Below are positions 2,828-34,128 of a stretch of DNA of 64,000 nucleotides, in pieces. Source of the stretch: Planctomycetota bacterium (GTDB lineage Bacteria > Planctomycetota > MHYJ01 > WSZJ01); NCBI GenBank assembly GCA_009773755.1, contig WSZJ01000001.1:17158-81157 (forward strand), read 5' to 3'. Each line of letters starts with the position of its first letter. Position 1 is the first letter of the stretch. The notes under the pieces are model-generated. The model was not told where the DNA came from, did not search any database, and saw only the letters and a list, made by a program, of their open reading frames with translations. Position numbers and translations under genes: made by a program.

Positions 2828-2830
2828 GGA

Positions 2831-8922: not shown

Positions 8923-8935
8923 CTGGAATTCCCTC

Positions 8936-13369: not shown

Positions 13370-13409
13370 GGGAAGCGGGAGGGGAAACGACGGTCCCGTC
13401 CGGCGCGCG

Positions 13410-18765: not shown

Positions 18766-18838
18766 CGGGGAAGTCTAACCGCGAATTGGCTGCAGCCCGG
18801 CTTGAGCCGCGGTTCCCGGTCGTGGGACAATCCCGGCA

Positions 18839-19128: not shown

Positions 19129-19179
19129 GGCGCCCCCCTTTCCCTCCCGCCCGCCCCTCGAATCTGGTACGACGTCCCC

Positions 19180-19833: not shown

Positions 19834-19876
19834 AGTGACCCGCTTCGCCGGGGGACTTTTTCTCAGGAGATCCTGC

Positions 19877-21400
19877 ATGCGCTTCCCGTTCGTAGCCACC
19901 GCTCTCCTCGCCACCGCACTGACGGCGGCTGCCGAAAGCGCGACCAACATCAAGGCGCCGGCCGCGCAGGGCATCGAGGTGTACGGGGACCTCTTCATCA
20001 AGTCGTTCGGGCGTTCAACGGCGATGAACGAGGCGCTCGACCGGGAATTCCTCGGCGGGAACCGGTCGGACAGCGACACGGGGGGCTACCTGACGGCGCG
20101 GATCGGGCTGCGCGTGCTGCTGGAGAAGCGCGTGTCGGTCGTGCTGGAGTTTGAGAACCGCGAGATGAACCGGATGGGCGAGGGGACGCAGGCGGTGGCG
20201 AGCCTGTGGGGGGGAGAGGACAATCTCGACTTCGATGTCCGGTTCGGGCAGGCGTACGTGAACATCCAGGATGTGTTCATCGAGGGGTTGAGCTTCCGCG
20301 CGGGGATCCAGGATTTCAAGGTGGACCCGGCCGGGACGGGGAACCCGTTCTTCATGGACTTGCGCAGGAGCGAGTCGCCGTTCTGGACGTCGGTGCAGGA
20401 AGGGCAGCTGGTGCAGGGGAACGCGGCGGCGGGTTTCAACGGGCTGCTTTCGACGGACGGTTTGTTCAAGGACCGGCAGTACGACGCGGGCGGGTTCAAG
20501 ATCGGCTACGCGCTGAACGAGAACGTCGAAGTGTCGTCGTTCCTGTTCACGACGTTCGAGGGCGGGCCGGCGCACGACGACCAGCTGCTCTACGGCGCGC
20601 GCTTCGACATGAACTTTCTCGACAAGGACAAGCCGTCGAACCTCGTGCTGATCGCGACGATGTTCACCAACGGCGGCAACCGGCACCGGGTGCTCACCTA
20701 CGGCGGCGGCACAGGGGTGCGCTTCAAGGACTTCACGTTCCACCTCGAGGGGTACGGCCAGTTCGGCGAGTTCGGCGAGTTCGATTCCGGCGCGGACGAG
20801 GACGTCGAGCGGCAGGTGGGCTGGGCCGGGATCCTCGGGGTTTATTACCGGCCGGAGGTCAGCATGGAGGCGAAGGATGCGAAGCCGCTGACGCCGTTCT
20901 TCTCGGTGAGCGGCCGGATCCTGAGCGGCGACGACGGGCAGAACGCGATCGCGGACGGGACCGGGACGTCGCCGCGGAGCCGCAAGAACCGGGACTTCAT
21001 CAGCATGGAGGGGAACAACGAGCTGATGATTCTCGAGGACGACGTGCTCGGGCTCGACGTCGATTCGAATTACGCTTCGATCCGCGTCGGCGGCGGCGTG
21101 CGGCTGAGCCTGCTCTCCCCCGCGGACTTCGAGGTCGGCGCAACCTACGCGTACAACCGCTGCCTGAAGACGGTGAACTTCGGCATCGGCGGCGCGGATT
21201 CATGGAAGACGCTCGGGCACGAAGTCGACGTGAAGCTGCGCTGGCACCAGTCGGAGCTGGTCACGTTCGCGACGGGATTCGGGTTGCTGTGGGACGCGGA
21301 TCATTTCGGCACGCGCAAGAACAGCGTCGACGACCTGGGGTTCCGGACGGGCAATACCAGGATGTGGATGTGGACCTTCGAGGTCGGCGTGACGTTTTAG
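19877..21400 (+). CDS. Outer-membrane beta-barrel protein (porin-like)
   Basis: Signal peptide MRFPFVATALLATALTAAA. The sequence has alternating amphipathic beta-strand character and ends in an aromatic residue (…FEVGVTF). Confidence 0.7.
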   Translation: MRFPFVATALLATALTAAAESATNIKAPAAQGIEVYGDLFIKSFGRSTAMNEALDREFLGGNRSDSDTGGYLTARIGLRVLLEKRVSVVLEFENREMNRMGEGTQAVASLWGGEDNLDFDVRFGQAYVNIQDVFIEGLSFRAGIQDFKVDPAGTGNPFFMDLRRSESPFWTSVQEGQLVQGNAAAGFNGLLSTDGLFKDRQYDAGGFKIGYALNENVEVSSFLFTTFEGGPAHDDQLLYGARFDMNFLDKDKPSNLVLIATMFTNGGNRHRVLTYGGGTGVRFKDFTFHLEGYGQFGEFGEFDSGADEDVERQVGWAGILGVYYRPEVSMEAKDAKPLTPFFSVSGRILSGDDGQNAIADGTGTSPRSRKNRDFISMEGNNELMILEDDVLGLDVDSNYASIRVGGGVRLSLLSPADFEVGATYAYNRCLKTVNFGIGGADSWKTLGHEVDVKLRWHQSELVTFATGFGLLWDADHFGTRKNSVDDLGFRTGNTRMWMWTFEVGVTF

Positions 21401-21447
21401 CCGGGAAAAAGCAACTTCAACGTTTCAACTACAAGCAACTTCAAACA

Positions 21448-22923
21448 GTGAACTTCAACTTCAATCCTCTGCTCATTGCGCTGGCGACCCTCGTTGCGTC
21501 CGACGCCTTCGCGCAATCTCCGGAAGCAGCGAAAGAAGCGGAAGATCGCCTCCGCATCGACTTCTTCATCGACGCGGAACTCTCGGGCGCCTACCGCAGC
21601 CACGCGATCACTCGCATCCTCGACCGCGACAACAACACGGACTCCGAGGCTTTTCTCGCGCCGAGGCTCACGATCCGCGCGGAAGCGCGCCTGCCGAAAT
21701 CCGCCGAAGTGGTGGTTGAAATCGAAAACGCGCGCCTGCGCTCCAACCTCTTCGACAGCGACACGTGGGGGACGGACGCCAATCGCGTCATTCCCGGGCG
21801 CGCGGACGATTTCGAAGCGCTCGTCGAGCAGGCCTACATCCGCGTCGACAACCTCTTCTGGAACCAGCTCTCGGTGAAGATCGGGCTGCAGGATTTCGCG
21901 CTCGCCCTGCGCGGGCCGGGGGACTCGTTTTTTGCGGACCTGCAGGAAAGCGAATTCGCGCTCGTTTCGCCGGTCGCGGAATCGGTCACGACGGGAAGCC
22001 TGTACGGCATGCGGGCGCCGGACGGGACGACGCCGGCGACCGCGGGAGTTTTCCGTGACCGCGCGGACGCCGGCGGAGCGCGGCTGACGTGGAACGTCGC
22101 GCAGAAGTCGCTGTTGTTCGTCGACGCGTTCTGGTTCACGACGCTGGAAGGCGGCGTGCGGCACGCGGACGAGCGGTTCTACGGGTTGAACGCGGATTTC
22201 CTGATTCCGATCACGGAAGACCGGCCTTCGCTCGTCAACGTGATGTTCTCCGGGATCGACAACGACCGCGCCGGCTCGCAGATCTGGACGGGCGGCCTCG
22301 GCCTCGATTTCTCGCCGATGGCGCCCGTGGGCCTCGACATCTACCTGGAGCTCTACGGACAGTGGGGACACTATGCCGACACGCCGGCTCACGGCGTGCA
22401 CCAGCGCGCGTTCGCCGGCCGCGCCGGCGTCAAGCTGCCGCTCCCCCTCCCGCTCAAGCCCGCCATCGAGGGCTCCGTCTGGCTCCTGTCCGGCGATCGC
22501 GGCGACCCCGACGACAGCACCAACCGCGATTTCGTCTCCTACGAAAACATCAACGAGGCCCTCGTCGTCGAGGACGCCCTCTACGGCCTCGACATCGACT
22601 CCAACTATTTTTCCCCGCGCCTCCGCGCCACGGCGACCGCGAAGCTCTTCAACCCCGACGATCTCCACATCGAACTTCTCTACGCGTGGTTCCGCTTTCA
22701 TCGCGAACCCGCCCGCGCCGGCGGCCCGGGCCGCTCCGACCCGGCAAGAAAGATCGGCCACGAAATCGACCTGCGCGCGCGCTTCGAATTCTCCGAGCAC
22801 GCTTCGTTCTCGATCTTCGCCGGCGCTCTGCTCGACTCGCCCTGGCTCGCGGCGAGGGATGCGTTCTACACACGGACGAGAAGAGCGTTCATCGGCGGCG
22901 TGCAGCTGAACGTCGGCTTCTGA
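21448..22923 (+). CDS. Outer-membrane beta-barrel protein, paralog of 19877-21400
   Basis: A GTG start at 21448 (VNFNFNPLLIALATLVASDAFAQ signal). Segments shared with the upstream paralog include VNIQDVF/IRVDNLF and a C-terminal aromatic (…GGVQLNVGF). Confidence 0.65.
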   Translation: MNFNFNPLLIALATLVASDAFAQSPEAAKEAEDRLRIDFFIDAELSGAYRSHAITRILDRDNNTDSEAFLAPRLTIRAEARLPKSAEVVVEIENARLRSNLFDSDTWGTDANRVIPGRADDFEALVEQAYIRVDNLFWNQLSVKIGLQDFALALRGPGDSFFADLQESEFALVSPVAESVTTGSLYGMRAPDGTTPATAGVFRDRADAGGARLTWNVAQKSLLFVDAFWFTTLEGGVRHADERFYGLNADFLIPITEDRPSLVNVMFSGIDNDRAGSQIWTGGLGLDFSPMAPVGLDIYLELYGQWGHYADTPAHGVHQRAFAGRAGVKLPLPLPLKPAIEGSVWLLSGDRGDPDDSTNRDFVSYENINEALVVEDALYGLDIDSNYFSPRLRATATAKLFNPDDLHIELLYAWFRFHREPARAGGPGRSDPARKIGHEIDLRARFEFSEHASFSIFAGALLDSPWLAARDAFYTRTRRAFIGGVQLNVGF

Positions 22924-22927
22924 GAAG

Positions 22928-24430
22928 CTACTTCGGAAGCGCCTTCTCCGCCTCCGGGATTCCGGGCGCATCCGGCGCGAGCGCTTTCGCCGTCGCAAGC
23001 CAGGCACCCGCCGCCGCAGGCGTTTTCCCGGCGCTCTCGAGCGCCAGCTTCGCGTACCGGGAAGCGTTTTCCCGCAGCACAATTGCCTTTGCCCCCAGCG
23101 CACGAAGCTCCTCGACGCGCGACCAGCGCACGCCGATATCGCTTCCGTCGCTTCCCGCCCCGCGCGCCGGGCTTCCTTCACCCAGCCGGTAATTGCCGTC
23201 TTGCCGCGCCACGAAGCGCGGGTCCGCTTCCAGCGCCTTCGTGAAAATCCACTTCATCTCGATCACGCCGGACTTCTGGCCTTCGCGAAGTTCCGCGAGC
23301 GAAGCGCATTTGTTCTGAACGATTCCCGCGAAGTTCTCGCAGTCCCACGCGAGAGCGCGCTCGATCGACCCGCCCCAGCAGAACCAGCGGTAGGCCAGCC
23401 CCGGGCGCACTCCGACGACGATGTTGTCCTCGAAGCGCCCGCCTCCGCCCTTTACGTACAGCCCGAATACGGCCCCGCCCACGATCGTGTTGTGGCCGAT
23501 TTCGGCTTCCTTCACTTCGCCGGAGACGATTCCGGATGAAGTGCCGATTTTCTGGGAGGTCCCGCAGTCGACGGTGAGACAGTCCGTTACGGATATCCCC
23601 GCGGCGTTCTCCACTGCGAAGCCCGTTTCGGGAGTGTCGCGGGCCTCGCAGGCTTCGAAGCGCACGCGGTCGGCGTTGGCGTGGAAGGCGCAGCGTTCGC
23701 CTCGTTCGGCCCGGCAGAGGAGAACGCGGCAGTCGGCGGCGTCAATGTTGAAAACGGTCCAGGCGGCGTCGCGGCCGGAGACGCCGACGGCAAGCCCGCG
23801 AGGCGACGCGGCAACATCGAAGGCGACGTTGCTTGAACCGTTCACTTCCACGTCGCGCGCGAGCCAGTCTTCGCAGCCGCCCAGGTGGACTCCGTGGCCG
23901 GGAGCCTTCGTGATGAGGACTCGCGAGATCGACGGCCGCAGGGAATTCCTGATCCAGAAACCCGAACACTGCTGCGACTCTCCCCTTGCGACCGCAACAT
24001 CGCGGACGCGGAGACCGTGCGCTCCGTCCGCGAGAAAGGCGGCCCAGCGACGGTCGGACTGCGGCACAAAGGTCGCCGTCGCGCCTTCCGCAGATCGGAT
24101 CAGCAGTCCCGGCAGGACGAGTTTCGGAAGCGACCAGGTCCCCGTTCCGAATTCGAGCGTGTTCCCGGCGCGAACGCCGGCGAGGTCCAGCGCGACCACG
24201 GCCATCGACTCCGCGGGCGCCTCGTACTTCCGCAAGCGATGCTCCAGCTGAACTTCCGCCATGCGTGCAACACGCAGGAAAATGACCCGCACCGCGCGCC
24301 CGCCCGAACTGAGCACGACCATGTGGTCCCCGAACGGAATGTCGAGATGCACAATCGGCGCAGCACCGACGCGCGCGCACAGCCCCGCTGTTCGCGCGAC
24401 TTCAATCCCTGGAAATAAATACCTCTTCAT
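22928..24430 (-). CDS. Right-handed parallel beta-helix repeat protein (pectate-lyase/NosD-like fold)
   Basis: Repeated Gly/Asn-rich beta-helix rungs (NTIVGGAVFGLYVKGGGG, NIVVGVRPG, VENAAGISVTDCL). The start is uncertain: MKRYLF at 24430 or a downstream Met. Confidence 0.6.
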   Translation of the reverse strand: MKRYLFPGIEVARTAGLCARVGAAPIVHLDIPFGDHMVVLSSGGRAVRVIFLRVARMAEVQLEHRLRKYEAPAESMAVVALDLAGVRAGNTLEFGTGTWSLPKLVLPGLLIRSAEGATATFVPQSDRRWAAFLADGAHGLRVRDVAVARGESQQCSGFWIRNSLRPSISRVLITKAPGHGVHLGGCEDWLARDVEVNGSSNVAFDVAASPRGLAVGVSGRDAAWTVFNIDAADCRVLLCRAERGERCAFHANADRVRFEACEARDTPETGFAVENAAGISVTDCLTVDCGTSQKIGTSSGIVSGEVKEAEIGHNTIVGGAVFGLYVKGGGGRFEDNIVVGVRPGLAYRWFCWGGSIERALAWDCENFAGIVQNKCASLAELREGQKSGVIEMKWIFTKALEADPRFVARQDGNYRLGEGSPARGAGSDGSDIGVRWSRVEELRALGAKAIVLRENASRYAKLALESAGKTPAAAGAWLATAKALAPDAPGIPEAEKALPK

Positions 24431-25979
24431 CCCACACCACACCGGGCACGCACGGCCCCATGTCGACGTCCACTCCCGAGTCGGTCGATACCACGCTCAG
24501 TATCGCGGTCCCCGCTACTCGCCGGGCGAGCGGCCCGAACCCCGGGTTCGCGCGCACGTCCGAGAACGCCGAAAGCACCGCCTTCGCCCCTTCCCAGTTG
24601 TCCTGCGCCGCGAGCGCATCCACCTGCGCCGTCGCGTGGGAGAAGCGGATCTCCGCGCGCGCGGCCGAGGCTTCGGGGAGCGATGCTTCCAGCGCTTCGG
24701 AAAGCCCCAGCGCGACGTACGACTCGTCGAAGCGGCCTTCTTTCGAGAGCCGCAGCGCTTCCGCAGCGTGGCCGCGCGCCTTGCCGAGCCGGTCGCGACG
24801 CGCATCCATGGACCTCCAGATCGAACCGCCCCCGGCCGCTCCGACGGCCAGCAGGCAGACGCACGCCGCGAGCACGCCCGCGCGATGGCGCTGCGCGAAT
24901 CGCGTCGCCCGATAAACGTACGACGGCGGCGCCGCCCGGATCGCTTCGCCCCGCAGGTACCGGTCGATGTCGTCGGCCAGTTCGCGGGCCGTCTGGTAAC
25001 GCCGCTCCTTTTCGCGCGCGAGCGCCTTCCCCACGATGATTTCGACATCGCGGTGAAGCCCGGCCCGGAGGGTCCGCATCGGCCGCGCGTCCGTCGTGCG
25101 GATATTCGTGAGGACGTCGGCGATCGTTGCGCCGCCGAAGGGCATGTCGCCGGTGAGCGCGTGGTAGGCCACGGCGCCGAGCGAGAATACGTCACTGCGC
25201 GCGTCGATTTCGGACGTCTTCCCCGCCGCCTGCTCCGGCGACATGTACCCCGGCGTCCCGAGCAGGTTCCCCGAAACCGTGAGGGAACTCTCGACCGACA
25301 GGTCCTTCGCCAGCCCGAAGTCCGAGAGCTTCACGCGTTCGAGCGGCGCCGAGGCGTCCGCCGACCGCTCCAGCCCGCTGGATGTCACCGTCAACCCCGC
25401 CATCAGGATATTCCCGGGCTTGACGTCCCGGTGAATGATCCCCTTCTCGTGCGCAAACTGAAGCGCCCGCGCCACTTCGCGCACCACCCGCAGCGCCTGC
25501 ATCGGAGGCAGCGGCCCGTCGCGCTTGATCAGCCGGTCGAGCGCGATCCCCTCGACGTACTCCATCGCGAAGTAATGGACCCCGCGCTCCTCGCCGACGT
25601 CGAAGATCTGCACGATCCCCGGATGCTGCAGCGCGGCCGCGGCGCGCGCTTCGCCGGTGAAGCGCACGATCTGTTCTTCGGAAGCTCCCTCGCCGGCCAG
25701 CAGCACTTTCAGCGCGACGACCCGGTTCAACTTCGCTTCGCGCGCCCGGTACACGACGCCCATCCCGCCACGCGCGATCTCGCCGAGAATCTCGTACTTT
25801 CCGAACGATTTCGGCTGTGCCGCCCCGGGCACCGGCTCGCCGGCCACCGGGCCGTCGGCCGCGCGAGTCTTCTCGAACGCCTCCTTCGATCTGGACATCA
25901 GCGTCCGCGCCACGTCCTCAGGCGTGGCCTTTCCTTCGCGCAGGAGCCGCGCGGCTTCTTCGAGGTCTTCTGGTTTCAT
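24402..25979 (-). CDS. Ser/Thr protein kinase with a C-terminal TM segment and an extracytoplasmic domain
   Basis: Kinase motifs GEIARGGMGVVYRA, VALKVL, HRDVKPGNIL, DFGLA and SPEQ. A TM helix VLAACVCLLAVGAAGGGSIW follows. Confidence 0.9.
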   Translation of the reverse strand: MKPEDLEEAARLLREGKATPEDVARTLMSRSKEAFEKTRAADGPVAGEPVPGAAQPKSFGKYEILGEIARGGMGVVYRAREAKLNRVVALKVLLAGEGASEEQIVRFTGEARAAAALQHPGIVQIFDVGEERGVHYFAMEYVEGIALDRLIKRDGPLPPMQALRVVREVARALQFAHEKGIIHRDVKPGNILMAGLTVTSSGLERSADASAPLERVKLSDFGLAKDLSVESSLTVSGNLLGTPGYMSPEQAAGKTSEIDARSDVFSLGAVAYHALTGDMPFGGATIADVLTNIRTTDARPMRTLRAGLHRDVEIIVGKALAREKERRYQTARELADDIDRYLRGEAIRAAPPSYVYRATRFAQRHRAGVLAACVCLLAVGAAGGGSIWRSMDARRDRLGKARGHAAEALRLSKEGRFDESYVALGLSEALEASLPEASAARAEIRFSHATAQVDALAAQDNWEGAKAVLSAFSDVRANPGFGPLARRVAGTAILSVVSTDSGVDVDMGPCVPGVVWDEEVFISRD

Positions 25980-26083
25980 CGTGCGTTGGAGATTATGCCG
26001 TAGCGGGACCGGGATCTGCGCCTTGAAGCGCCCCCACCCCCTCTTCTAAGCTGTCTGTACTTCCCCGTTTCCCGGAGTTCGGC

Positions 26084-26968
26084 GTGCGCCGCTTCGCCCT
26101 CGCGATTGCCGCTTTCTCGCTGTCGCTCTGCGCCGACGACAAGCCGGATCTCCGCCAGGAGTCCGCCGACAAGATTGCCGCCAAGGTCGCGAAGATGGAA
26201 TTCGACGGCGCCGAGCCTGAAAAGTTCTCGGACAAGATCCAGGCGATGTCGGACGAATTCAGCGCCGCAAACGCTCCCGCGGGCGAGGCGCTTGCGATCG
26301 CCAGCTCGGACGGCAAAGTCATTCTCGTGGTGGGCGGAAAGGGCGCGAAAGACGGCCTCACTGTGGCGGTGGCGACGCCCCCGAAGGGCCGCAAAGTGCT
26401 TCTGCGGGGCGGGGACGGCGGAACTGGCGGTCGCGCGGGCCGATCGGCGCTCTGGATTGAGAGCGGTGCGGGCACCACATGGTGCCATAGCCCCCAAAAC
26501 GGTGCGCGTGGCGAACGCGAAGACGCCTTCTACGTCACCGTCACTCAGCCTGGAGCGGGCTATTGGGTCTCGGGCTCGACCGGTGCGAACGGAACGGATG
26601 CCGAAGAGGGCGGTCAGGACGACCTGGTCCCTAAGGACGACGTCAAGGCGGTCGCGGACGCCGTGGAAAAGGTGAATGCTGCGTGGGAGAACGAGGCAAA
26701 GCGCAAGACCGAAATCGAAGAGCTTTCGAAGCACCGGCCGACGCGCGGCGTCATCGCGGCGTTTTCAACCGACGGAAAGCTCCTTGTCCTCATCGGCGCC
26801 AGCGGAAACGACCGCAATCCGGACGGAGCCTCCGTCGAGCTCGCGGGAAAGGTGGCCGAGAGGATGGTGGCCATCGCGGGAAGCGCAGGGAAAGGCGGAA
26901 AGCCTGGCGTCGCCATAGCCCCTCAGGGAGCCGTCACGATAGACGAGGTCGAGCGTCGAGAGGAATGA
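26084..26968 (+). CDS. Secreted hypothetical protein (paralog A)
   Basis: Signal peptide MRRFALAIAAFSLSLCADD. It has Gly-rich segments and the motif GKLLVLIGASGNDRNPDGASVELAGK. Confidence 0.6.
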   Translation: MRRFALAIAAFSLSLCADDKPDLRQESADKIAAKVAKMEFDGAEPEKFSDKIQAMSDEFSAANAPAGEALAIASSDGKVILVVGGKGAKDGLTVAVATPPKGRKVLLRGGDGGTGGRAGRSALWIESGAGTTWCHSPQNGARGEREDAFYVTVTQPGAGYWVSGSTGANGTDAEEGGQDDLVPKDDVKAVADAVEKVNAAWENEAKRKTEIEELSKHRPTRGVIAAFSTDGKLLVLIGASGNDRNPDGASVELAGKVAERMVAIAGSAGKGGKPGVAIAPQGAVTIDEVERREE

Positions 26969-27045
26969 CCTCCTGCGCCCGTCTGCGCCTTGCAGCGACG
27001 CAGGAGAGTTTCTAAGCTGCTTTCTTCATCTTCCAAGAGGCCTCG

Positions 27046-27903
27046 ATGCGCCGCTTCGCACTCGCTTTCACGCTCTTCGCCTTCTCCGTCCGCGCGGATG
27101 ATGACGCCGAAAAGAGGCAGAAGGTCGTTGACAAGGTCGCGGAACACATGAAGCGCATCAAGACGGCGCCCGTCGACGAGCGCAAGGTCCGCGAGGGCGA
27201 GGTGAAGGACACGCTCGACCGCTGGGGGAGCACCTGGGCCGGCGCGAGCGGCGCGCTCGTGATCGCCAGCACCGACGAAAGCGCCGTCCTGATCGTGGGC
27301 GGCACGTGCGAAAAGGACGGCGTCAGCGTGGTGGTCGCCGCGCCGCCGAAGGGACTGCCGGTGCGACTCCGGGGAGGAGACGGCGGCGAAACGGGAAAGG
27401 CGGGGCGCTCGGCAGCCTGGAGGGACGGCGCTTACTCCGGGGAAAGCGGCGGGAACGGTGAGGGAGAAAGAGGCGGACGCGGTGGCTCGTTCGCGGTCTC
27501 CGCCGCCGGCGCCTCGGCTTCCGGCGCGACCGGCGCCAACGGCAAGAAGGCGGAGGCCGGCGGAGAAGACGACCTCCCGGACGCCGAGAGCGTCAAGTCG
27601 GTTGCAGAAAGCACCGACGCGCTTCAGGCCGTCTGGGACAACGAGGACAAGCGCAAGGCGGTTCTCATTGCGCTCGCCGGGCACCGGCCGGCACGCGGCG
27701 CGGTGGCCTGCTGGTCCAAGGACGGCAAACTGCTCGTCCTCATCGGCGCCAATGGCGACGACCGTAACCCGGACGGCGTCTCGGTGGAGGTCGCGGGAAA
27801 GCCGGCCGAGCGAATCGTGGCGATCGCGGGCAATCCGGGAACGAACGGCAAGCCCGGCACCGCAAAGGCGCCGGAAGGATCTGTGACGGTGAACGGCAAG
27901 TAG
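27046..27903 (+). CDS. Secreted hypothetical protein (paralog B, tandem duplicate of 26084-26968)
   Basis: Signal peptide MRRFALAFTLFAFSVRADDD. Blocks shared with paralog A are GKLLVLIGANGDDRNPDGVSVEVAGKPAERIVAIAG and VLLRGGDGG. Both genes are preceded by a ttctaagctg motif. Confidence 0.6.
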   Translation: MRRFALAFTLFAFSVRADDDAEKRQKVVDKVAEHMKRIKTAPVDERKVREGEVKDTLDRWGSTWAGASGALVIASTDESAVLIVGGTCEKDGVSVVVAAPPKGLPVRLRGGDGGETGKAGRSAAWRDGAYSGESGGNGEGERGGRGGSFAVSAAGASASGATGANGKKAEAGGEDDLPDAESVKSVAESTDALQAVWDNEDKRKAVLIALAGHRPARGAVACWSKDGKLLVLIGANGDDRNPDGVSVEVAGKPAERIVAIAGNPGTNGKPGTAKAPEGSVTVNGK

Positions 27904-27937
27904 CGCTTCGCGGCCTGCATCGCTAACGTGGGCGCCC

Positions 27938-28447
27938 ATGCGCCTCGGCCTTGGCTTCGACATCCACCGTCTGGTCCCCGGTCGCCCCTTCATTCTCGGC
28001 GGCGTGACGTTCGACCACCCGCGCGGCCCCTCCGGCCACTCCGACGGGGATGTCCTGCTCCACGCGCTCGTCGACGCCCTCCTCGGCGCGGCGGCCCTCG
28101 GCGACATCGGCGACCACTTCCCCGACACCGACCCGAAGTGGAAGGGCACTGCGGGGAGCGTCTTCGTCATTGAGACGCTGGCGCTTCTTGCGAAACGAAA
28201 GCTCTTTCCCGTCCAGGTGGACTCGACGGTGTTCCTGGAAGTGCCGAAGCTGGGGAAGAAGAAGCGCGAGCTGGCGGAGGCCCTGGCCAGCCTGCTCGAC
28301 ATTTCTCCGGACCGAACCTCCGTGAAGGCCAAAACGATGGAAGGACTTGGCGCGATCGGGGCGGGCGAGGCGGTGGCGGCGCAGGTGCTGGTGGTGGTGG
28401 AGGAGCGGATTGCGAAGGGCGGCACGACGAAACGGAGGGCGAAGTAA
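27938..28447 (+). CDS. ispF: 2-C-methyl-D-erythritol 2,4-cyclodiphosphate synthase
   Basis: An IspF signature is present (MRLGLGFDIHRL...GHSDGDVLLHALVDALLGAAALGDIGDHFPDTDPKWKG). Confidence 0.9.
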   Translation: MRLGLGFDIHRLVPGRPFILGGVTFDHPRGPSGHSDGDVLLHALVDALLGAAALGDIGDHFPDTDPKWKGTAGSVFVIETLALLAKRKLFPVQVDSTVFLEVPKLGKKKRELAEALASLLDISPDRTSVKAKTMEGLGAIGAGEAVAAQVLVVVEERIAKGGTTKRRAK

Positions 28448-29857
28448 GTGGCGATCCAGTTCTACAACACGCTGACGAAGAAGAAGGAAGAGTTCGCGCC
28501 GCAGGAGAAGGGCGTGGTCCGCATGTACAACTGCGGGCCGACGGTGTACTCGTACCCTCACATCGGGAATTTCCGGGCGTTCGTCTTCGCGGACGTGCTG
28601 CGGCGCTACCTCGAGTACCGCGGGTTCGACGTGAAGCAGGTGATGAACATCACCGACGTCGGGCACATCACGCACGATGCGGACGAGGGCGAGGACAAGA
28701 TGGAGCTGCAGGCGAAGAAGGAGAAGCGGGATCCCTGGCAGATTGCGGCGCACTACGGCGGGATCTTTCTCGACCTGCGCAAGCAGCTCGGCTTCGCGGA
28801 CGCGCTCGCGCACCCGAAGGCGACCGATCACATCCCCGAGATGCTCGCGATGATCGAGAAACTGATCGAGAAGGGGCACGCGTACGTCGTCGGGCACAAC
28901 GTGTACTACAGCGTGGCGTCGTTTCCGAATTACGGAAAGCTCAGCGGCAACATCACCGAGGACCTGGAGGCCGGCGCGCGGATCGAGCCGCACCCGGACA
29001 AGAAGGATCCGCGCGACTTCGCGCTCTGGAAGCACGACCCGCACCACGTCATGCAATGGGACTCGCCATGGGGAAAGGGCTTCCCGGGCTGGCACATCGA
29101 GTGCAGCGCGATGTCGATGAAATACCTCGGAGAGACGCTCGACATCCACACCGGCGGCGAGGACAACATCTTTCCGCACCACGAATGCGAAATCGCGCAG
29201 AGCGAGGCCGCCAACGGGAAGTTGTTCTGCAAAATGTGGATGCACGCGCGCTTCCTGCTCGTCGACGGCCAGAAAATGTCGAAGTCGCTGGGGAACTTCT
29301 ACACCGTCGAGGACGTCTTCAAGCACGGCGTCACGGCGCCCGCGCTTCGCTGGGGCCTCGCCACGTCGCACTACCGCCAGCAGATGAACTTTTCCTGGGA
29401 GAGCATGCAGGTCGCGCAGGGGTCGGTCGACAAGCTGATCGAGTTCCGGCGGCGGCTTTCGGACGCGCACGGAGCGGCGACTCTGGAGCTTGTCAAGCCG
29501 ATCGTCGAAAAGGCGCGCAAGGACTTCGAGAGGGGGATGGACGACGACCTGAACGTCTCCGAAGCAACCGCGGCGTTGTTCACGCTCGCCCGCGAAGTCA
29601 ACCGCCTCGACCCGAATCCCCAGGCGGCTGCATTCGTGCGCGACGCGTTCGACAAGCTGGACACGGTGTTCAACATCGGCAGCGCGCTTCCGGACGTCTT
29701 CACGCCCGAGGAGCAGAGGCTCCTCGACGCCCGCGCCGCTGCCCGCGCTTCGAAGAACTGGGACGACTCAGACCGCCTCCGGAAGGAGCTCGAGGCGAAG
29801 GGCGTCCTCGTCGAGGACTCGCCGCGCGGCCAGCGGCCCCGGCGGGCGCGGAAATGA
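28448..29857 (+). CDS. cysS: Cysteine--tRNA ligase
   Basis: HIGH (PHIGN) and KMSKS motifs and the class I aaRS pattern. It has a GTG start. Confidence 0.95.
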   Translation: MAIQFYNTLTKKKEEFAPQEKGVVRMYNCGPTVYSYPHIGNFRAFVFADVLRRYLEYRGFDVKQVMNITDVGHITHDADEGEDKMELQAKKEKRDPWQIAAHYGGIFLDLRKQLGFADALAHPKATDHIPEMLAMIEKLIEKGHAYVVGHNVYYSVASFPNYGKLSGNITEDLEAGARIEPHPDKKDPRDFALWKHDPHHVMQWDSPWGKGFPGWHIECSAMSMKYLGETLDIHTGGEDNIFPHHECEIAQSEAANGKLFCKMWMHARFLLVDGQKMSKSLGNFYTVEDVFKHGVTAPALRWGLATSHYRQQMNFSWESMQVAQGSVDKLIEFRRRLSDAHGAATLELVKPIVEKARKDFERGMDDDLNVSEATAALFTLAREVNRLDPNPQAAAFVRDAFDKLDTVFNIGSALPDVFTPEEQRLLDARAAARASKNWDDSDRLRKELEAKGVLVEDSPRGQRPRRARK

Positions 29858-30222
29858 GCGTCGAATTCATCGCACTCTTTGAGGGGATGCGGGCGAACCC
29901 CGACGCCTGCGCTGCCGCGAAGAAGTCAGGCGTCGTGCTTCAATTCCGGCTGCTGGCGCCGGTAGCGTTCGTCGTCCTCGACTTGTCTGTCGAACCGTTC
30001 AGCGTCTCCACCGGGGAACATGCGGAACCCGGAGTGGAACTGACGCTCACGGTCGCCGCGGCCCACGAACTGCTCTCAGGCCGCCTCGCGGTCGCGCAAG
30101 CCGCCGCCACCGGCGCCGTGCGCGCACGGGGCGGCGTGCTGAAACTGCTCGCGCTTCAGCCCTTCCTTGGCGCCGCCAAAGAGGCCTACGCGTCCAGATC
30201 CGGCGGGACTACGAGCCGGTGA
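29854..30222 (+). CDS. SCP2 sterol-binding-domain protein
   Basis: A 122-aa protein, MSVEFIALFEGMRANPDA...LTLTVAAAHELLSGRLAVAQAAATGAVRARGGVLKLLALQPF. It has an ATGA overlap with the cysS stop. Confidence 0.65.
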   Translation: MSVEFIALFEGMRANPDACAAAKKSGVVLQFRLLAPVAFVVLDLSVEPFSVSTGEHAEPGVELTLTVAAAHELLSGRLAVAQAAATGAVRARGGVLKLLALQPFLGAAKEAYASRSGGTTSR

Positions 30223-30676
30223 GAAGTTCGGACTGCCCCCCGGGGAGAATCCGCAGGCGAATCCTGGCCGGACCGTCCGCGGGGGCGTCCGCGGGAAGCG
30301 CGAGCCAGGCTTCGGTGGAACCGGGCAGGAAGAGTTCCGGCCGCCCGCTGACGCGCTTCACCTCTCCGGTAGCCTCGACGGTCACGGCGTCGCCGCGGAA
30401 ACCCGCCGCCTTCAGCGCGTCAAACATCGCCGAGGGCGCGATCCGCGCCCCGGGCCTCGGGAAGATCAGAGCCTTCCCACCCTGCAAGTCGATCATGATG
30501 CTCGCGACGCCGTCCAGGCGTCCCAGGGCGTCCTCGACGCCCTTCGTTCAGGGGCTTCACTCCATACCGGAAATGTCGACGGTGAATTTGAGCAGGCCTT
30601 CGGTCGGCGCGGGCCCCGCGGGCGGCGCGACGGCGCAGCCAGCCAGGGCGAGGATCAGGACGGGCGCGTATCGCAT
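30209..30676 (-). CDS. Candidate selenoprotein: lipoprotein with a heavy-metal-associated (HMA, MerP/CopZ-like) domain whose MxCxxC motif is encoded M-E-TGA-S-P-TGA (putative UxxU)
   Basis: The ATG is at 30676 with AAGGAA about 8 nt upstream. The lipoprotein signal is MRYAPVLILALAGC. My own translation reads ...LLKFTVDISGME[TGA]SP[TGA]TKGVEDALGRLDGVASIMIDLQGGKALIF...FDALKAAGFRGDAVTV. This matches the HMA beta-alpha-beta-beta-alpha-beta pattern with both metal-ligand Cys positions occupied by in-frame TGA (minus-strand codons at 30559-30557 and 30550-30548). Two perfect hairpins lie immediately downstream: GGGCGUC-GAG-GACGCCC at 30542-30526 and GACGCC-UGGAC-GGCGUC at 30522-30506. The alternative reading is a pseudogene. 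Confidence 0.5.
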
Positions 30677-30706
30677 GGTTCGTTCCTTTGTAGGAGGTTG
30701 AACGGC

Positions 30707-31582
30707 TCAGAACAGGATCTTGACCGCGACAAATGCGCTCCAGCGCGACCGGCCGTACTCGTCGTCGATCGTGTCCATCAGATCGAACGCCGCGTTTCCT
30801 TCGAACAGCAGCCACTTCGTCGCATAGAACTGCAGCCCCGGCGCAATCCAGACCTGGTCGCCGCTGTCGTCGAATTCGGCGCCGCGCGTGTGATACCTGT
30901 GCAGGTACCACGCATCGACAACCAGACGGAGTTCCAGCCCCGCCTCGCCCGGCTGAAAAACTGCCGGGAACAGCCGGAACCAGTACGCCACGTCGACCCG
31001 CAGGATCGGCCCCGGGCTGATCCCGCCGCGGGAAGTGCCCGCCCGGCCGATCGCGTCGATGGCGAAGCGATGCCGGTCCTTGATGTAGGTGAACGCGGCT
31101 CCCAGCGTGAAATCGAACGTGCCGCTTCCCAGCTGCAGCTTGCGCGCGTAAGGCTCCTTCTCGTCACCAATGCGGTCGTTCCACTTCCCTGTCGGGAATT
31201 CGATCCCCGCGATCACGGCTGTGCGCATGGAGGTCATGACGCCGTCCTCCTTGTGCACCACGACCTTGCCTTTCATGCCGACGTCGCCGAATCCGGCGAT
31301 GTTCTCCCAGTCGTCGCGGATTTCAAAACTCCGTGCGATGAACGGGACGGAGATGGAGCCCTCGAAGCGCGGGTGGAAGCCGTAGTGGAACTCCCCGACC
31401 GCGGAGAACTCGTCGACATGCCGCCACTGCGCGCCGTTGATGACGAGGCGGGCGAGCGGCGTTTCGGGCGAAACCGTGCCGGCGTTTTCCGTGACGAGCT
31501 GGGCGGAAGCGCTTCCGGCGAGTGAGCAGAGGAATGCGGCGGCAGCGAGGGCGCGCCAGAATCCCGGGAATGCGTGGTGCAT
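30707..31582 (-). CDS. Outer-membrane beta-barrel protein (MetA-pathway/phenol-degradation-like transporter family)
   Basis: An internal ATG at 31582 (MHHAFPGFWRALAAAAFLCSLAGSASAQ signal) has a GGAG RBS. The protein is about 291 aa and ends …FVAVKILF. The upstream part of the 367-aa track ORF is non-coding-like. Confidence 0.65.
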   Translation of the reverse strand: MHHAFPGFWRALAAAAFLCSLAGSASAQLVTENAGTVSPETPLARLVINGAQWRHVDEFSAVGEFHYGFHPRFEGSISVPFIARSFEIRDDWENIAGFGDVGMKGKVVVHKEDGVMTSMRTAVIAGIEFPTGKWNDRIGDEKEPYARKLQLGSGTFDFTLGAAFTYIKDRHRFAIDAIGRAGTSRGGISPGPILRVDVAYWFRLFPAVFQPGEAGLELRLVVDAWYLHRYHTRGAEFDDSGDQVWIAPGLQFYATKWLLFEGNAAFDLMDTIDDEYGRSRWSAFVAVKILF

Positions 31583-31874
31583 GAATGCGATCTCCTGGTT
31601 GCGGTGACGGGGAACGGCATCGCCACGGAGACGCAATCTAGCAGCGCAGGGGGAAGCCTTCGAGAAGTGGTGAAGGGCCGGTATCGGCGAAGGAGGCGCG
31701 GGCCTGGAGTGCGCAGAGAGCGGGAGGCGGAATAAAGAGCTCGTCGAGGCTTGCGGACGGATCGGATTCAATGTCCGGCGGGACAGGATCAGCGGGTTCC
31801 GCGGCCGCAAGGCTCGTCAGGCAGCACGGCCCGCCCATGGAAATCGCCGGACCCTCCGGCGCCGGGGTGGCCTC

Positions 31875-32066
31875 TCAGGAGCCGCAGCCGGCGGCGGGGC
31901 GCGCTTCATGAATTCCACCCCCGCAGGCCTCGGTCGTGGAGCCGGTGCAGCAGCAGGCCGACTGGTCCTGTCGCATGGTCCGGAGGCACGAGAACCGCAG
32001 ACCGCGCGCGTTCGCCGGAAGGGCGGCCGTCAGGGCTGCGAGCAGAAGGAGTGTTTGCCGGAGCAT
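31875..32066 (-). CDS. Small secreted Cys-rich peptide with a CCC motif (63 aa)
   Basis: Signal peptide MLRQTLLLLAALTAALPANA. The mature part is RGLRFSCLRTMRQDQSACCCTGSTTEACGGGIHEARPAAGCGS. It has high GC3 codon usage and is co-oriented and adjacent with the OM barrel and HMA genes. Confidence 0.35.
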   Translation of the reverse strand: MLRQTLLLLAALTAALPANARGLRFSCLRTMRQDQSACCCTGSTTEACGGGIHEARPAAGCGS

Positions 32067-32103
32067 GGTGCGAGTATCCCCCCGAACGCCGGATTTCAGC
32101 GCG

Positions 32104-33975
32104 CTATTCCCGGTTCTGGATTTCCCCGTCGAATCTCACGACCACGCGGTACTTTCCGTCCTCAAGCCGCGACTCGACGGGCTCGCCGCTCTTGTGGAAG
32201 ATCCCCATCATGCGGACGTTTCCGGCGAGAACGACGCCGGTGAAGCCGCGGATGCCGCGCTCGCGGGCAATGCGCGCAAGACGCTTGAAGAGCCAGGTGC
32301 CGACGCCGCGGCTCTGGAATTCCTCTGCGACGGTGAAGGTGAGGTCTGCGAAGCCGGTGGCGCGCTCGAGTTCGTAGCGGCCAAGCGCGACGATGCGGTC
32401 GCTCTCGCCGTCCCGGACGAAGCCCGCGATCGCCATTTCCGCGTCGTAGTCGAGCGCGCACTGGTCCTGGATCTGTTGCGGCGTCAGAGACTTGAGAGGC
32501 GCGCCGTAGCGCTGGTAGACCGTTTCCGGGGAGTGCGAATAGAAAAACGCGCGGAGGAGGCGCTCGTCGTCGGGGCGAAGCGGCCGGAAGAACACCTCAG
32601 CGTCCCCGAATTTCTCGCGCGCCTCGAGTTCGACGGGGTACGGCCGTCCCTTTTCAGGCCACGGCACCTGGTCGACCGCGACCACATGTCGCTTCTTCGC
32701 CGCTGCCAGGAGTTCGCCGCGGAAGTCCGGGTGCGCAATGCTGATCAGCGACAGCGCGCGTTCGCGGACCGTGCGCCCCTTCAATTCCGCAATTCCGTAT
32801 TCCGTGACGACGGTGTGGACATCGCCGCGCGTCGTGACGACGCCCGCTCCCTCGGCGAGCACGGAAACAATCCGCGACAGCGTGCCCTGCTTTGCCGTCG
32901 ACTCGATCGCGATGATGCTCCGCCCACCTGCCGAGCGCGCCGCGCCGCGAATGAAGTCGACCTGACCGCCGATGCCGGAGTAGAAGCGGGTGCCGATGGA
33001 GTCCGCGCAGACCTGCCCGGTGAGGTCGATCTGGAGCGCGGAGTTGATGGAGACCATGCGGTCGTTCTTGGCGATGACGAACGGGTCGTTGACGAACTCG
33101 TTGGGGAGGAACTCGAAGAACGGGTTGTCGTCGACGAAGTCGTAGAGGCGGCGCGAGCCCATGCAGAAGGACGTGACGGCCTTGCGCGGGTGGAGCGTTT
33201 TGCGGCGCCCGTTGATGACGCCGGACTCGATGAGCGGGATCACGCCGTCCGCCAGCATCTCCGTGTGCAAGCCGAGATCGATCTTGTTGCCGAGATTCGC
33301 GAGGACAGCGTTCGGGATGCCGCCAATTCCGAGCTGAAGCGTCGCGCCGTGATCGATCAGGCTCGCGCAGAACGCGCCGATCGCGAGCGACACCTTGTCC
33401 GGCGCTTCCATCGGCCGCTCGAGAATGGGCGCGGTTCCCGTGACGAAGAAGTCGATGTCCTCGACGTGCACGAAGCTCGCGCCGTGCGTCCGCGGCATCG
33501 TGGGGTTCAGTTCCGCAACGACGACGTCCGCGCTCTCCACCGCCGATTTCACCACGTCTACCGAAACTCCCAGCGAAACGAATCCGTGCCTGTCGGGAGG
33601 CGACGTGCAGACGAGCGCGACATCCAGCGGGATACGGCGCGACCGGAACAACCCCGGAATCTCCGAGAGAAACATCGGCGTGAAGTCCGCCGCCCCCTGC
33701 GCCACCGCGTCACGGACGTTCGAGCCGATGAAGAAAGCGTTCGCGCGGAAGCGCCGCGTCTGTTCCGCCTTCGCATAGGGCGCGTGGCCGACGGTCATGA
33801 TGTGCAGCACCTCGACATCCTCGACGTCGGACCGCGCCGCCAGCGCCTCGACGAGCGGCACCGGCTCCGCGCAACCCGAACCGACGAAGACGCGCGAGCC
33901 GCGCTTCACGCAGGCAACCGCTTCGGCGGAGGTGACGGTGCGGGTACGGAGGTGGTCCTGCCACGGTGCTGGCAT
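32104..33975 (-). CDS. Acetyl-CoA hydrolase/transferase family protein fused to a C-terminal GNAT N-acetyltransferase domain
   Basis: It starts at MPAPWQDHLRTRTVTSAEAVACVKRGSRVFVGSG (the CoA-transferase N-terminus) and contains GIGGIPNAV. The C-terminal 150 aa has the GNAT pattern (QSRGVGTWLFKRLARIARERGI). Confidence 0.85.
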   Translation of the reverse strand: MPAPWQDHLRTRTVTSAEAVACVKRGSRVFVGSGCAEPVPLVEALAARSDVEDVEVLHIMTVGHAPYAKAEQTRRFRANAFFIGSNVRDAVAQGAADFTPMFLSEIPGLFRSRRIPLDVALVCTSPPDRHGFVSLGVSVDVVKSAVESADVVVAELNPTMPRTHGASFVHVEDIDFFVTGTAPILERPMEAPDKVSLAIGAFCASLIDHGATLQLGIGGIPNAVLANLGNKIDLGLHTEMLADGVIPLIESGVINGRRKTLHPRKAVTSFCMGSRRLYDFVDDNPFFEFLPNEFVNDPFVIAKNDRMVSINSALQIDLTGQVCADSIGTRFYSGIGGQVDFIRGAARSAGGRSIIAIESTAKQGTLSRIVSVLAEGAGVVTTRGDVHTVVTEYGIAELKGRTVRERALSLISIAHPDFRGELLAAAKKRHVVAVDQVPWPEKGRPYPVELEAREKFGDAEVFFRPLRPDDERLLRAFFYSHSPETVYQRYGAPLKSLTPQQIQDQCALDYDAEMAIAGFVRDGESDRIVALGRYELERATGFADLTFTVAEEFQSRGVGTWLFKRLARIARERGIRGFTGVVLAGNVRMMGIFHKSGEPVESRLEDGKYRVVVRFDGEIQNRE

Positions 33976-34128
33976 GGCGCCTAGTCTAGAAGAGCGCGAG
34001 CGCTTGGAGAAGGTCACCCCGGCTGATCTTTACCGCTTCTTAAAGAACCCTTTGTCCGGCCTGAACCGGGCGCGCCTACCGTCCGGCAGATCGAGATATC
34101 AAAACGGTTCCCAATCCCAGGAGATCGC

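What the first reader, a model, noticed from the sequence alone, without database searches (positions are those of the whole stretch)
30209..30676. HMA-domain lipoprotein in which both cysteines of MxCxxC are encoded by TGA: candidate di-selenocysteine (UxxU) metal-binding selenoprotein
The minus-strand gene starts at an ATG with a good RBS and a lipoprotein signal (LALAGC). It reads ...KFTVDISGME-TGA-SP-TGA-TKGVEDALGRLDGVASIMIDLQGGKALI...AAGF, the canonical heavy-metal-associated (MerP/CopZ) fold. The two in-frame TGA codons fall exactly on the two metal-ligand Cys positions of the GMxCxxC motif. A pseudogene would not be expected to place nonsense codons precisely there. Two perfect hairpins lie immediately 3' of the TGAs on the mRNA: GGGCGUC-GAG-GACGCCC starts 5 nt after the second UGA, followed by GACGCC-UGGAC-GGCGUC. 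Their position and size suit a bacterial SECIS. A Sec-Sec chelation site would have very high affinity for soft metals such as Hg, Cu(I), Ag and Cd.
Basis: partly seen in the sequence, partly recalled or inferred. Interest (0 to 1): 0.88.

Follow-up and report, generated by a model that had tools for sequence, protein, structure and literature searches.

The report
Two-selenocysteine metal-binding lipoprotein gene
This is very probably a real gene for a secreted, lipid-anchored metal-binding protein whose two metal-gripping cysteines are both replaced by selenocysteine; that type of protein is already known, but this family, with an extra domain and an outer-membrane partner, has not been described and is cut short in the databases.

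Summary
Window 30676..30209 (-) reads lipoprotein signal (LALAGC), HMA domain with GME-TGA-SP-TGA, then a 58-residue C-terminal extension.

I recovered 14 distinct relatives from independent assemblies, down to about 30% identity. All 14 keep the first TGA and 12 keep the second. Two unrelated members have TGC (Cys) at the second site. Full-length Cys homologs carry CxxC at the same place. The reading frame is conserved on both sides.

Two hairpins follow the TGAs. RNAalifold predicts them independently, and five base pairs show compensatory changes. Synonymous codons are 78% identical there against 50% elsewhere (p = 4e-5). So this is a di-selenocysteine (UxxU) selenoprotein, not a pseudogene or a sequencing error.

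The kind is known: NCBIfam NF041115 "UxxU_metal_bind", and Sec-containing MerP in ocean metagenomes. This family fails NF041115 (32 bits against a cutoff of 95). It also differs in three ways: a lipoprotein anchor, an OB-like C-terminal domain, and an outer-membrane beta-barrel gene directly upstream in all 15 loci that reach far enough.

Its neighbours are housekeeping genes (cysS, ispF), not a mer or cop operon.

The Sec machinery of the source genome could not be checked. The metal specificity and the roles of the two hairpins are inferred.

The parts
30209..30676 (-). Complete coding sequence: 155 codons plus a TAG stop, with two in-frame TGA codons read as selenocysteine.
   Evidence: Translation. 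The frame is conserved on both sides of the TGAs in 14 distinct relatives.
30684..30688 (-). Shine-Dalgarno-like AAGGA, 7 nt upstream of the ATG.
   Evidence: Read directly.
30635..30676 (-). Signal peptide ending in the lipobox L-A-G-C (Cys14 is the lipidated residue).
   Evidence: A lipobox-type Cys is present in every sequence (LAGC, LSGC, AAAC, TAGC, AAGC, IAGC, VAGC).
30557..30559 (-). First TGA (codon 40), at the first metal-ligand position of GMxCxxC.
   Evidence: TGA in 14 of 14 relatives. It aligns to the first Cys of solved HMA domains.
30548..30550 (-). Second TGA (codon 43), at the second metal-ligand position.
   Evidence: TGA in 12 of 14 relatives and TGC (Cys) in L014 and L020.
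30525..30543 (-). Hairpin 1: AGGGCGUC-GAG-GACGCCCU, an 8-bp stem. Its loop starts 21 nt after UGA1.
   Evidence: 88% of cells are paired, and compensatory changes occur at two pairs (G-C to A-U in L013 and L017; G-C to C-G in L018). The loop sequence is not conserved.
30506..30522 (-). Hairpin 2: GACGCC-UGGAC-GGCGUC, a 6-bp stem. The loop UGGA is invariant and starts 31 nt after UGA2 and 40 nt after UGA1. This is the best SECIS candidate.
   Evidence: 100% of cells are paired in 14 sequences, and 3 of 6 pairs show compensatory changes. The strongest synonymous-site conservation in the gene lies here.
30386..30592 (-). HMA (heavy-metal-associated) domain, residues about 29-97.
30212..30385 (-). 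C-terminal beta-rich extension, residues 98-155. It is specific to this family and probably a small OB-like barrel.
30707..31582 (-). Partner gene: a 291-residue outer-membrane beta-barrel protein with a signal peptide and a C-terminal ...KILF. It ends 30 nt upstream of the selenoprotein ATG.
   Evidence: A tblastn match lies directly upstream in all 15 other loci that reach that far, including the distant L011 and L012 (35-38% identity), and also in L017, L019 and L020. Homologs carry a weak Pfam Phenol_MetA_deg hit.

Best explanation
SHOWN
- The gene at 30676..30209 (-) encodes one continuous 155-residue protein. It has a lipoprotein signal peptide, a Pro/Ala-rich tether, an HMA domain and a beta-rich C-terminal domain.
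- Both metal-ligand positions of the GMxCxxC loop are encoded by UGA.
- That arrangement, and the frame on both sides of it, is conserved in a family of at least 14 distinct sequences from independent assemblies.
- Two conserved RNA hairpins follow the UGAs.
- An outer-membrane beta-barrel gene always lies immediately upstream.

INFERRED, high confidence
- Both UGAs are decoded as selenocysteine by SelB and tRNA-Sec. This gives a U-S-P-U diselenolate site.

INFERRED, moderate confidence
- Hairpin 2 is the SelB-binding SECIS. Its UGGA loop is invariant and lies 31 nt from UGA2.
- Hairpin 1 either serves UGA1 (21 nt to its loop) or acts as a foldable spacer that keeps hairpin 2 within reach of both UGAs.
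- After export and lipidation, the protein sits in the periplasm, probably tethered to the outer membrane.
- There it binds a soft metal ion (Cu(I), Ag(I), Hg(II) or Cd(II)) between the two selenolates and works together with the co-transcribed outer-membrane channel. It either hands metal to the channel or takes metal from it.
- The metal and the direction of transfer are not known.
- The housekeeping neighbourhood (cysS, ispF, SCP2) points to a constitutive physiological role, not an acquired resistance cassette.
For: 1. Conserved TGAs. GME-TGA-xP-TGA occurs in WIN, L015, L003, L005, L006/L008, L001/L009, L013, L011, L012, L017, L018 and L019. Pairwise identity falls to about 30%.
2. Sec/Cys exchange. 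L014 and L020 have TGA-xP-TGC and are not each other's closest relatives. Fifty-eight clusters of full-length homologs carry CxxC in the same place with the same C-terminal extension.
3. The part upstream of the TGAs is coding. The lipobox and the EGLL...GME stretch are conserved while their codons vary synonymously.
4. There is no conserved start codon after TGA2. The codon there is ACG, GTG, GCG, GCC or ATG.
5. RNA structure. RNAalifold predicts both hairpins. 93% of cells are paired, against 30-50% for slid controls. Five pairs show compensatory changes, and 0 of 500 shuffles reach the observed score.
6. Synonymous sites. Synonymous-codon identity is 78% in the 14 codons after TGA2 and 50% elsewhere (Mann-Whitney p = 4e-5). 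The top sliding windows all lie there.
7. Cys control. The one Cys homolog whose DNA I could read lacks this structure: -5 kcal/mol for the fixed structure, against -25.3 for the window sequence.
8. SECIS model. The hairpins fit the published bacterial SECIS model: loop of 3-9 nt, stem of 4-16 bp, G in the first two loop positions, and 16-37 nt from the UGA (PMC13188914). Hairpin 1 fits relative to UGA1 and hairpin 2 relative to UGA2.
9. TGA is not reassigned. It is an ordinary stop for many genes in this window, including cysS.
10. Precedent. UxxU HMA selenoproteins are a recognised family (NF041115). Sec-containing MerP has been reported (PMC2398784). Some Planctomycetes have complete Sec machinery (PMC4807772).
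11. Partner gene. The outer-membrane gene lies 2-33 nt upstream in all loci that reach that far.
Against: - No selA, selB, selD or tRNA-Sec lies in the 64-kb window or in the fetched flanks. The rest of the source genome could not be read.
- No other in-frame-TGA gene was found in the window.
- Folding energy alone is not significant.
- The loop of hairpin 1 has no G in L005, L013 and L017. Hairpin 1 is also out of register in L014, L019 and L020.
- Hairpin 2 lies 40 nt from UGA1, just outside the usual 16-37 nt range.
- Much of the hairpin sequence also encodes the conserved helix GVEDALxRLxGV, so protein and RNA constraints overlap.
- There is no experimental evidence for selenium or for any metal.
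- The outer-membrane protein has no confident family assignment (Pfam E = 0.066; no PDB sequence match).
- The Cys homolog P0024 is not next to such an outer-membrane gene.
Confidence: 0.8

Rival explanations
1. The UGAs are recoded, but to something other than Sec. One route is Cys inserted by a UGA-reading tRNA-Cys with a SelB-like factor, which has been reported for some bacteria (my own knowledge, not checked here). Another is near-cognate read-through by Trp or Cys.
For: The comparative signals would look the same under this reading: conserved TGAs, exchange with Cys, and conserved downstream hairpins. Sec machinery was not demonstrated for this genome.
Against: Replacing TGC with a costly recoded TGA that still gives Cys would bring no obvious benefit, yet the TGAs persist across a family that has diverged to 30% identity. 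UxxU HMA proteins are accepted selenoproteins. Sec-using Planctomycetes exist. Trp at a metal-ligand position would destroy the site.
Confidence: 0.07
2. The protein is a di-Sec selenoprotein, but the UxxU pair works as a redox-active diselenide/diselenol. On this reading it is a periplasmic oxidoreductase or metalloid reductase, not a metal-binding or metal-transfer site.
For: Most bacterial selenoproteins are redox proteins with UxxC or CxxU motifs, and UxxU occurs in a Prx-like family. The metal was not identified.
Against: The fold is HMA. The motif GMxCxxC and the following helix align with metal-binding domains of CopZ, ATP7B, MerP and ZntA. No thioredoxin-like fold or redox partner is encoded nearby.
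Confidence: 0.1
3. The locus is two separate products, as current annotation implies. These would be a 39-residue lipopeptide that ends at the first TGA, and a C-terminal fragment started internally (KAF0247100.1 starts at MIDLQ...).
For: Gene callers split it this way in every assembly. Many relatives have GTG immediately after TGA2.
Against: The codon after TGA2 is not a conserved start: it is ACG in the window, and GCG, GCC or ATG in other members. The split would cut an HMA domain through its metal-binding loop and leave the C-terminal part without a signal peptide. The exact 2-codon spacing of the TGAs, the Cys substitution at the second TGA and the CxxC homologs have no explanation under this reading.
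Confidence: 0.03
4. The gene is a pseudogene or carries sequencing errors, and the TGAs are recent nonsense mutations or miscalls.
For: Nothing beyond the bare presence of two stop codons.
Against: The same two TGAs occur in 12 of the 14 distinct sequences, and the other two keep the first TGA. These come from unrelated samples and assemblers (ENA, Logan, JGI, NCBI), have no frameshifts, and show purifying selection on both sides.
Confidence: 0.01

Closest known systems
NCBIfam NF041115 'UxxU_metal_bind', metal-binding (seleno)protein. [quoted passage not shown]
   Same: An HMA-type domain in which both Cys of CxxC are replaced by Sec. It is a predicted soft-metal binder known only from sequence.
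   Different: The window protein scores 32.4 bits against a cutoff of 95, so it is not a member. The NF041115 model covers only a 74-residue HMA domain. This protein has 155 residues with a lipoprotein signal, a tether and a 58-residue C-terminal beta domain, and it is always paired with an outer-membrane protein gene.
MerP, the periplasmic Hg(II)-binding HMA protein of mer operons (TIGR02052), including the Sec-containing MerP sequences reported from the GOS metagenome.
   Different: It scores 22.2 bits against a cutoff of 92.55. The Pfam scans of the window found no MerT, MerA or MerR family. MerP is a soluble periplasmic protein, not a lipoprotein, and has no C-terminal domain.
CopZ/Atx1-type copper chaperones and the N-terminal metal-binding domains of P1B-ATPases. 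These include the 'Cation-transporting ATPase E1-E2' selenoproteins with UxxC.
   Same: These are the best sequence and structure matches to the HMA part. Sec at the first ligand position is known in the ATPase family.
   Different: Those proteins are cytoplasmic. This one has a signal peptide and a lipobox, so it acts outside the cytoplasm. No P-type ATPase gene is adjacent.
CusF-type periplasmic metallochaperones working with an envelope-spanning export system (analogy from my own knowledge).
   Same: A small periplasmic protein with an OB-type barrel that handles Cu(I) or Ag(I) and works with an outer-membrane component. The C-terminal domain here looks OB-like.
   Different: No sequence relationship was found. 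The metal site here is in the HMA domain, not the barrel. The partner is a lone ~290-residue beta-barrel, not a tripartite RND pump.

Membership tests
Bacterial selenoprotein (SelB-dependent UGA recoding) | In-frame UGA conserved among diverged orthologs, with an intact frame on both sides | tested here: met
   UGA1 is present in 14 of 14 sequences and UGA2 in 12 of 14, with identity down to about 30%.
Bacterial selenoprotein (SelB-dependent UGA recoding) | Cys-containing homologs align Cys to the UGA position | tested here: met
   L014 and L020 have TGC at the second site. Fifty-eight CxxC clusters share the same architecture. The solved HMA domains align their CxxC to the UxxU positions.
Bacterial selenoprotein (SelB-dependent UGA recoding) | SECIS stem-loop immediately downstream: 3-9 nt loop with G in its first two positions, 4-16 bp stem, 16-37 nt from the UGA, MFE <= -7.5 (PMC13188914) | tested here: met
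   Hairpin 2 relative to UGA2 meets every criterion in all 12 UxxU sequences: 31 nt spacing, loop UGGAN, 6 bp. Hairpin 1 relative to UGA1 meets them in the window (21 nt, loop GAG, 8 bp), but its loop lacks G in L005, L013 and L017. Covariation and synonymous-site conservation support both stems.
Bacterial selenoprotein (SelB-dependent UGA recoding) | selA, selB, selD and tRNA-Sec present in the same genome | not testable with these tools
   They are absent from the 64-kb window and the fetched flanks. Some Planctomycetes do have the full set (PMC4807772).
Bacterial selenoprotein (SelB-dependent UGA recoding) | Selenium in the protein | not testable with these tools
   This needs 75Se labelling or mass spectrometry.
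HMA domain (Pfam PF00403) | Profile score above the gathering threshold | tested here: met
   34.5 bits against 24.8, E = 2.6e-8, with U replaced by C.
HMA domain (Pfam PF00403) | GMxCxxC metal-binding loop between beta1 and alpha1, in a beta-alpha-beta-beta-alpha-beta fold | tested here: met
NCBIfam NF041115 UxxU_metal_bind | Score at or above the curated cutoff of 95 bits | tested here: not met
   32.4 bits.
NCBIfam NF041115 UxxU_metal_bind | U-x-x-U at the HMA ligand positions | tested here: met
MerP (TIGR02052) | Score at or above 92.55 bits, and a mer operon context (merT, merA, merR) | tested here: not met
   22.2 bits. The neighbours are an outer-membrane protein gene, SCP2, cysS, ispF and an acetyl-CoA hydrolase gene.
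Bacterial lipoprotein | Signal peptide ending in the lipobox [LVI][ASTVI][GAS]C | tested here: met
   The window protein starts MRYAPVLILALAGC. A lipobox-type Cys is conserved across the family. No dedicated predictor was run, and sorting to the outer membrane is inferred.

The most novel reading that the evidence does not exclude
This would be an undescribed and fairly widespread envelope system: a di-selenolate HMA lipoprotein with an OB-like domain, dedicated to an outer-membrane beta-barrel channel, that captures or transfers a soft metal (Cu, Ag or Hg) across the outer membrane. Its two UGAs lie 9 nt apart and would be served by an unusual tandem RNA element. Hairpin 2 would bind SelB for both codons. 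Hairpin 1 would be a collapsible spacer, folded while UGA1 is decoded and melted while UGA2 is decoded. About 60 further gene calls in the 50%-identity library that start just after the second ligand position suggest that Sec forms are about as common as Cys forms in this superfamily.
Probability: 0.3. Interest if true: 0.65.

Novelty: new variant of a known kind. Interest (0 to 1): 0.5.

Why it matters
- It adds a well-supported two-Sec family to the short list of bacterial proteins with more than one selenocysteine. It also extends selenoproteins in Planctomycetia to an extracytoplasmic metal-handling role.
- It exposes a systematic annotation error. Every database copy is split or truncated at the TGAs; in GenBank this gene is a 95-residue hypothetical protein (KAF0247100.1).
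- Two UGAs only 9 nt apart, followed by two conserved hairpins, make a compact natural test case for how bacterial SECIS spacing rules cope with adjacent Sec codons.
- The fixed pairing with an outer-membrane channel suggests a selenium-dependent route for soft metals at the outer membrane. That would link selenium availability to copper or mercury physiology in soil and freshwater bacteria.

Tried and rejected
- Rfam at gathering thresholds found nothing in the window.
- Single-sequence folding energy against shuffles was not significant (z = -1.35). I dropped it as evidence because any 66% G+C stretch folds well. The Cys homolog has a similar MFE without the conserved structure.
- The search for Sec machinery was negative. 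ARAGORN on the window and five loci found no tRNA. Pfam scans of 43 window ORFs found no SelA, SelB or SelD.
- A scan for other in-frame TGAs flanked by coding-type GC3 found only adjacent same-frame genes, in the window and in the longer loci.
- The protein-pattern scan of metagenome contigs found nothing. An exact DNA pattern then found three loci.
- The genome-collection scan returned only two Planctomycetia MAGs, because the pattern was narrow.
The model of the part after TGA2 (pLDDT 81) gave no meaningful Foldseek match. I therefore modelled a Cys homolog instead.
- The outer-membrane protein has no PDB sequence match and no NCBIfam match, and only a sub-threshold Pfam hit.
- The promoter and terminator scan of 29800-32200 found nothing.
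- I considered and rejected a genome-wide reassignment of TGA, because many window genes end in TGA.
- I considered and rejected a mer or cop operon context.

Full report
**1. The observation**

The minus strand of 30676..30209 reads MRYAPVLILALAGCAVAPPAGPAPTEGLLKFTVDISGME-TGA-SP-TGA-TKGVEDALGRLDGVASIMIDLQGGKALI...AAGFRGDAVTVEATGEVKR...LLTGS-TAG.
- TGA1 is at 30559..30557 and TGA2 at 30550..30548.
- An AAGGA lies 7 nt before the ATG.
- With U written as C, the protein passes Pfam HMA (34.5 bits against 24.8).
- GME-U-SP-U aligns on the GMTCxSC loops of solved ATP7B and CopZ domains.

**2. Is it real? Comparative evidence**

The protein database holds this gene only as fragments. The source record is a 95-residue "hypothetical protein FD180_39" of a Planctomycetota MAG (KAF0247100.1). 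All relatives found start just after the second TGA.

I fetched their contigs and read upstream. This gave 14 distinct sequences from ENA, Logan, JGI and NCBI assemblies, with identity to the window protein from 94% down to about 30%.
- All 14 have a signal peptide with a lipobox-type Cys, a tether, and GME (GLE in L018) followed by TGA.
- Twelve have TGA-x-P-TGA.
- L014 and L020 have TGA-x-P-TGC. These two are not each other's closest relatives.
- The stretch before the TGAs is conserved at the protein level with synonymous variation.
- The codon after TGA2 is not a conserved start codon: it is ACG, GTG, GCG, GCC or ATG.

This excludes sequencing error, a pseudogene and the split-gene annotation.

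A profile search of 1.84 billion cluster representatives gave 506 hits. I sorted the best 150 together with the eight proteins fetched earlier. Fifty-eight are full-length proteins with a signal peptide, CxxC (mostly G[LM]xCPFC) and the same C-terminal extension. About 60 are calls of 95-135 residues that begin right after the second ligand position. Four of these were checked on DNA and all have the TGAs: L017, L018 and L019 are UxxU, and L020 is UxxC. Some unverified calls begin MTCAH... or MCAH..., which suggests a UxxC subfamily.

TGA is a normal stop in this window, for cysS among others, so the code is not reassigned.

**3. The RNA element**

I aligned 66 nt from UGA1 for the 14 sequences, without gaps (A3).
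- RNAalifold predicts the two hairpins on its own.
- Counting the pairs, 93% of cells are standard pairs, against 30-50% when the partner column is slid. Five pairs have compensatory double changes. None of 500 shuffles reaches the observed pairing or covariation score.
- Hairpin 2 is paired in every sequence. Three of its six pairs covary: G-C to C-G, A-U or U-G; A-U to G-C; G-C to A-U.
- Hairpin 1 is paired in 88% of cells. It covaries at two pairs, but it is shifted or altered in L014, L019 and L020.

This stretch also encodes the conserved helix GVEDALxRLxGV, so I tested synonymous sites separately. Among sequence pairs with the same amino acid, codons are identical in 78% of cases in the 14 codons after TGA2 and in 50% elsewhere (Mann-Whitney p = 4e-5). 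The eight highest 14-codon windows all overlap this stretch (with 10 sequences the figures were 87% against 50-57%).

The only Cys homolog whose DNA I could read lacks the structure, although its G+C content is 71%.

The published bacterial SECIS model asks for a 3-9 nt loop with G in its first two positions, a 4-16 bp stem, 16-37 nt from the UGA, and MFE <= -7.5.
- Hairpin 1 fits UGA1 (21 nt) but not UGA2 (12 nt).
- Hairpin 2 fits UGA2 (31 nt) and narrowly misses UGA1 (40 nt).
- Only hairpin 2 has an invariant loop (UGGA). The loop of hairpin 1 lacks G in L005 (UCU) and in L013 and L017 (ACC).

Two readings remain open. Either there is one hairpin per UGA, or hairpin 2 binds SelB for both UGAs and hairpin 1 is a spacer that is folded while UGA1 is decoded and melted while UGA2 is decoded.

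**4. The protein and its neighbourhood**

The mature protein would be a lipid-anchored HMA domain on a tether of about 13 residues, plus a 58-residue beta-rich extension with no Pfam or NCBIfam family.
- An AF2 model of the part after TGA2 (pLDDT 81) shows HMA strand beta4 running on into a small beta structure.
- A model of Cys homolog P0033 (pLDDT 87, pTM 0.78) shows HMA followed by beta-beta-beta-alpha-beta-beta.

Directly upstream lies a gene for a 291-residue outer-membrane beta-barrel protein (30707..31582, 30 nt gap). A homolog sits in the same place, 2-33 nt upstream, in every locus that reaches that far. This includes the most distant ones, at 35-38% identity. Its only family signal is a weak Phenol_MetA_deg hit, and it has no PDB relative by sequence.

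Downstream are SCP2, cysS and ispF, and this synteny is shared with other Planctomycetia MAGs. No mer or cop genes are adjacent. A Cus-type RND cluster and a YHS protein lie about 17 kb away, but they are not part of the conserved neighbourhood.

**5. Mechanism**

Shown: one conserved reading frame with two UGAs at the HMA ligand positions, a conserved downstream RNA structure, and a fixed outer-membrane partner.

Inferred with high confidence: both UGAs are read as Sec.

Inferred with moderate confidence:
- The protein is exported and lipidated.
- It chelates a soft metal between two selenolates.
- It exchanges that metal with the partner channel.

The metal and the direction of transfer are unknown. 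The housekeeping context argues for a constitutive role, not an acquired resistance module.

**6. What could not be done**

No Sec machinery lies in the window or the flanks, and the rest of the MAG was out of reach. The literature shows that complete Sec machinery exists in several Planctomycetes (PMC4807772). That makes Sec decoding plausible but does not test it for this genome.

**7. Comparison with what is known**

UxxU HMA selenoproteins are already catalogued as NCBIfam NF041115. They trace to the Olavius symbiont study (PMC1976440). Sec-containing MerP, MerT and P-type ATPase HMA domains have also been reported.

The window protein works like these but is not a member of NF041115 (32.4 bits against 95), of MerP (22.2 against 92.55) or of the CopZ models. 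It differs in the lipoprotein anchor, the extra domain, the outer-membrane partner and the two-hairpin element. Neither the 2026 review table nor NCBIfam release 20 contains a matching family.

**8. Verdict**

It is a new variant of a known kind, not a new principle. Interest is moderate at 0.5, and higher if the tandem-hairpin mechanism or the outer-membrane metal route is confirmed.

Noticed in passing
window 2-13414 (-): Heavy-metal efflux cluster: two RND pumps (ACR_tran; 2-2830 partial, and 5761-8949), each with a CusB/HlyD-type adaptor. One adaptor carries HMBD heavy-metal-binding repeats (2834-4339). A YHS-domain protein lies at 12389-13414. The cluster is about 17 kb from the selenoprotein gene and is not part of its conserved neighbourhood.
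   Followed up: partly
window 30209-30496 (-): GenBank annotates the selenoprotein gene only as a 95-residue hypothetical protein starting at an internal ATG (KAF0247100.1, FD180_39). In other assemblies it is split into a 39-41-residue call plus a 91-134-residue call.
   Followed up: yes
proteins P0105, P0106, P0125, P0130, P0137, P0139, P0140 and about 50 others: Many 95-135-residue gene calls in the 50%-identity library start exactly after a ligand position of the HMA loop. Some begin MTCAH... or MCAH..., which suggests a U-x-x-C subfamily. Sec forms may be about as numerous as Cys forms in this HMA-plus-extension superfamily. Only four were verified on DNA.
   Followed up: partly
L014 406-417; L020 3989-4000: Two family members from different branches have TGA-x-P-TGC (U-x-x-C), so Sec and Cys have been exchanged at the second site at least twice. 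In both, hairpin 1 is out of register while hairpin 2 is intact.
   Followed up: yes
window 47125-51093 and 51311-55288 (-): Two adjacent paralogous proteins of about 1,325 residues, with TPR repeats plus DUF3857 and transglutaminase-like domains.
   Followed up: no
window 17686-34029; L001 7059-18044: A long block of synteny with another Planctomycetia MAG: rlmN-like, ispD, two unknown proteins of about 500 residues, ispF, cysS, SCP2, the selenoprotein gene, the outer-membrane gene, and an acetyl-CoA hydrolase/GNAT fusion. The selenoprotein unit is therefore a stable chromosomal resident.
   Followed up: partly
window 36624 (+); L011 8353 (-): Same-frame ORF pairs separated by a single TGA, flagged by my selenoprotein scan. 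They look like ordinary adjacent genes (a sensor kinase followed by a sigma-54 response regulator in the window), not selenoproteins.
   Followed up: partly
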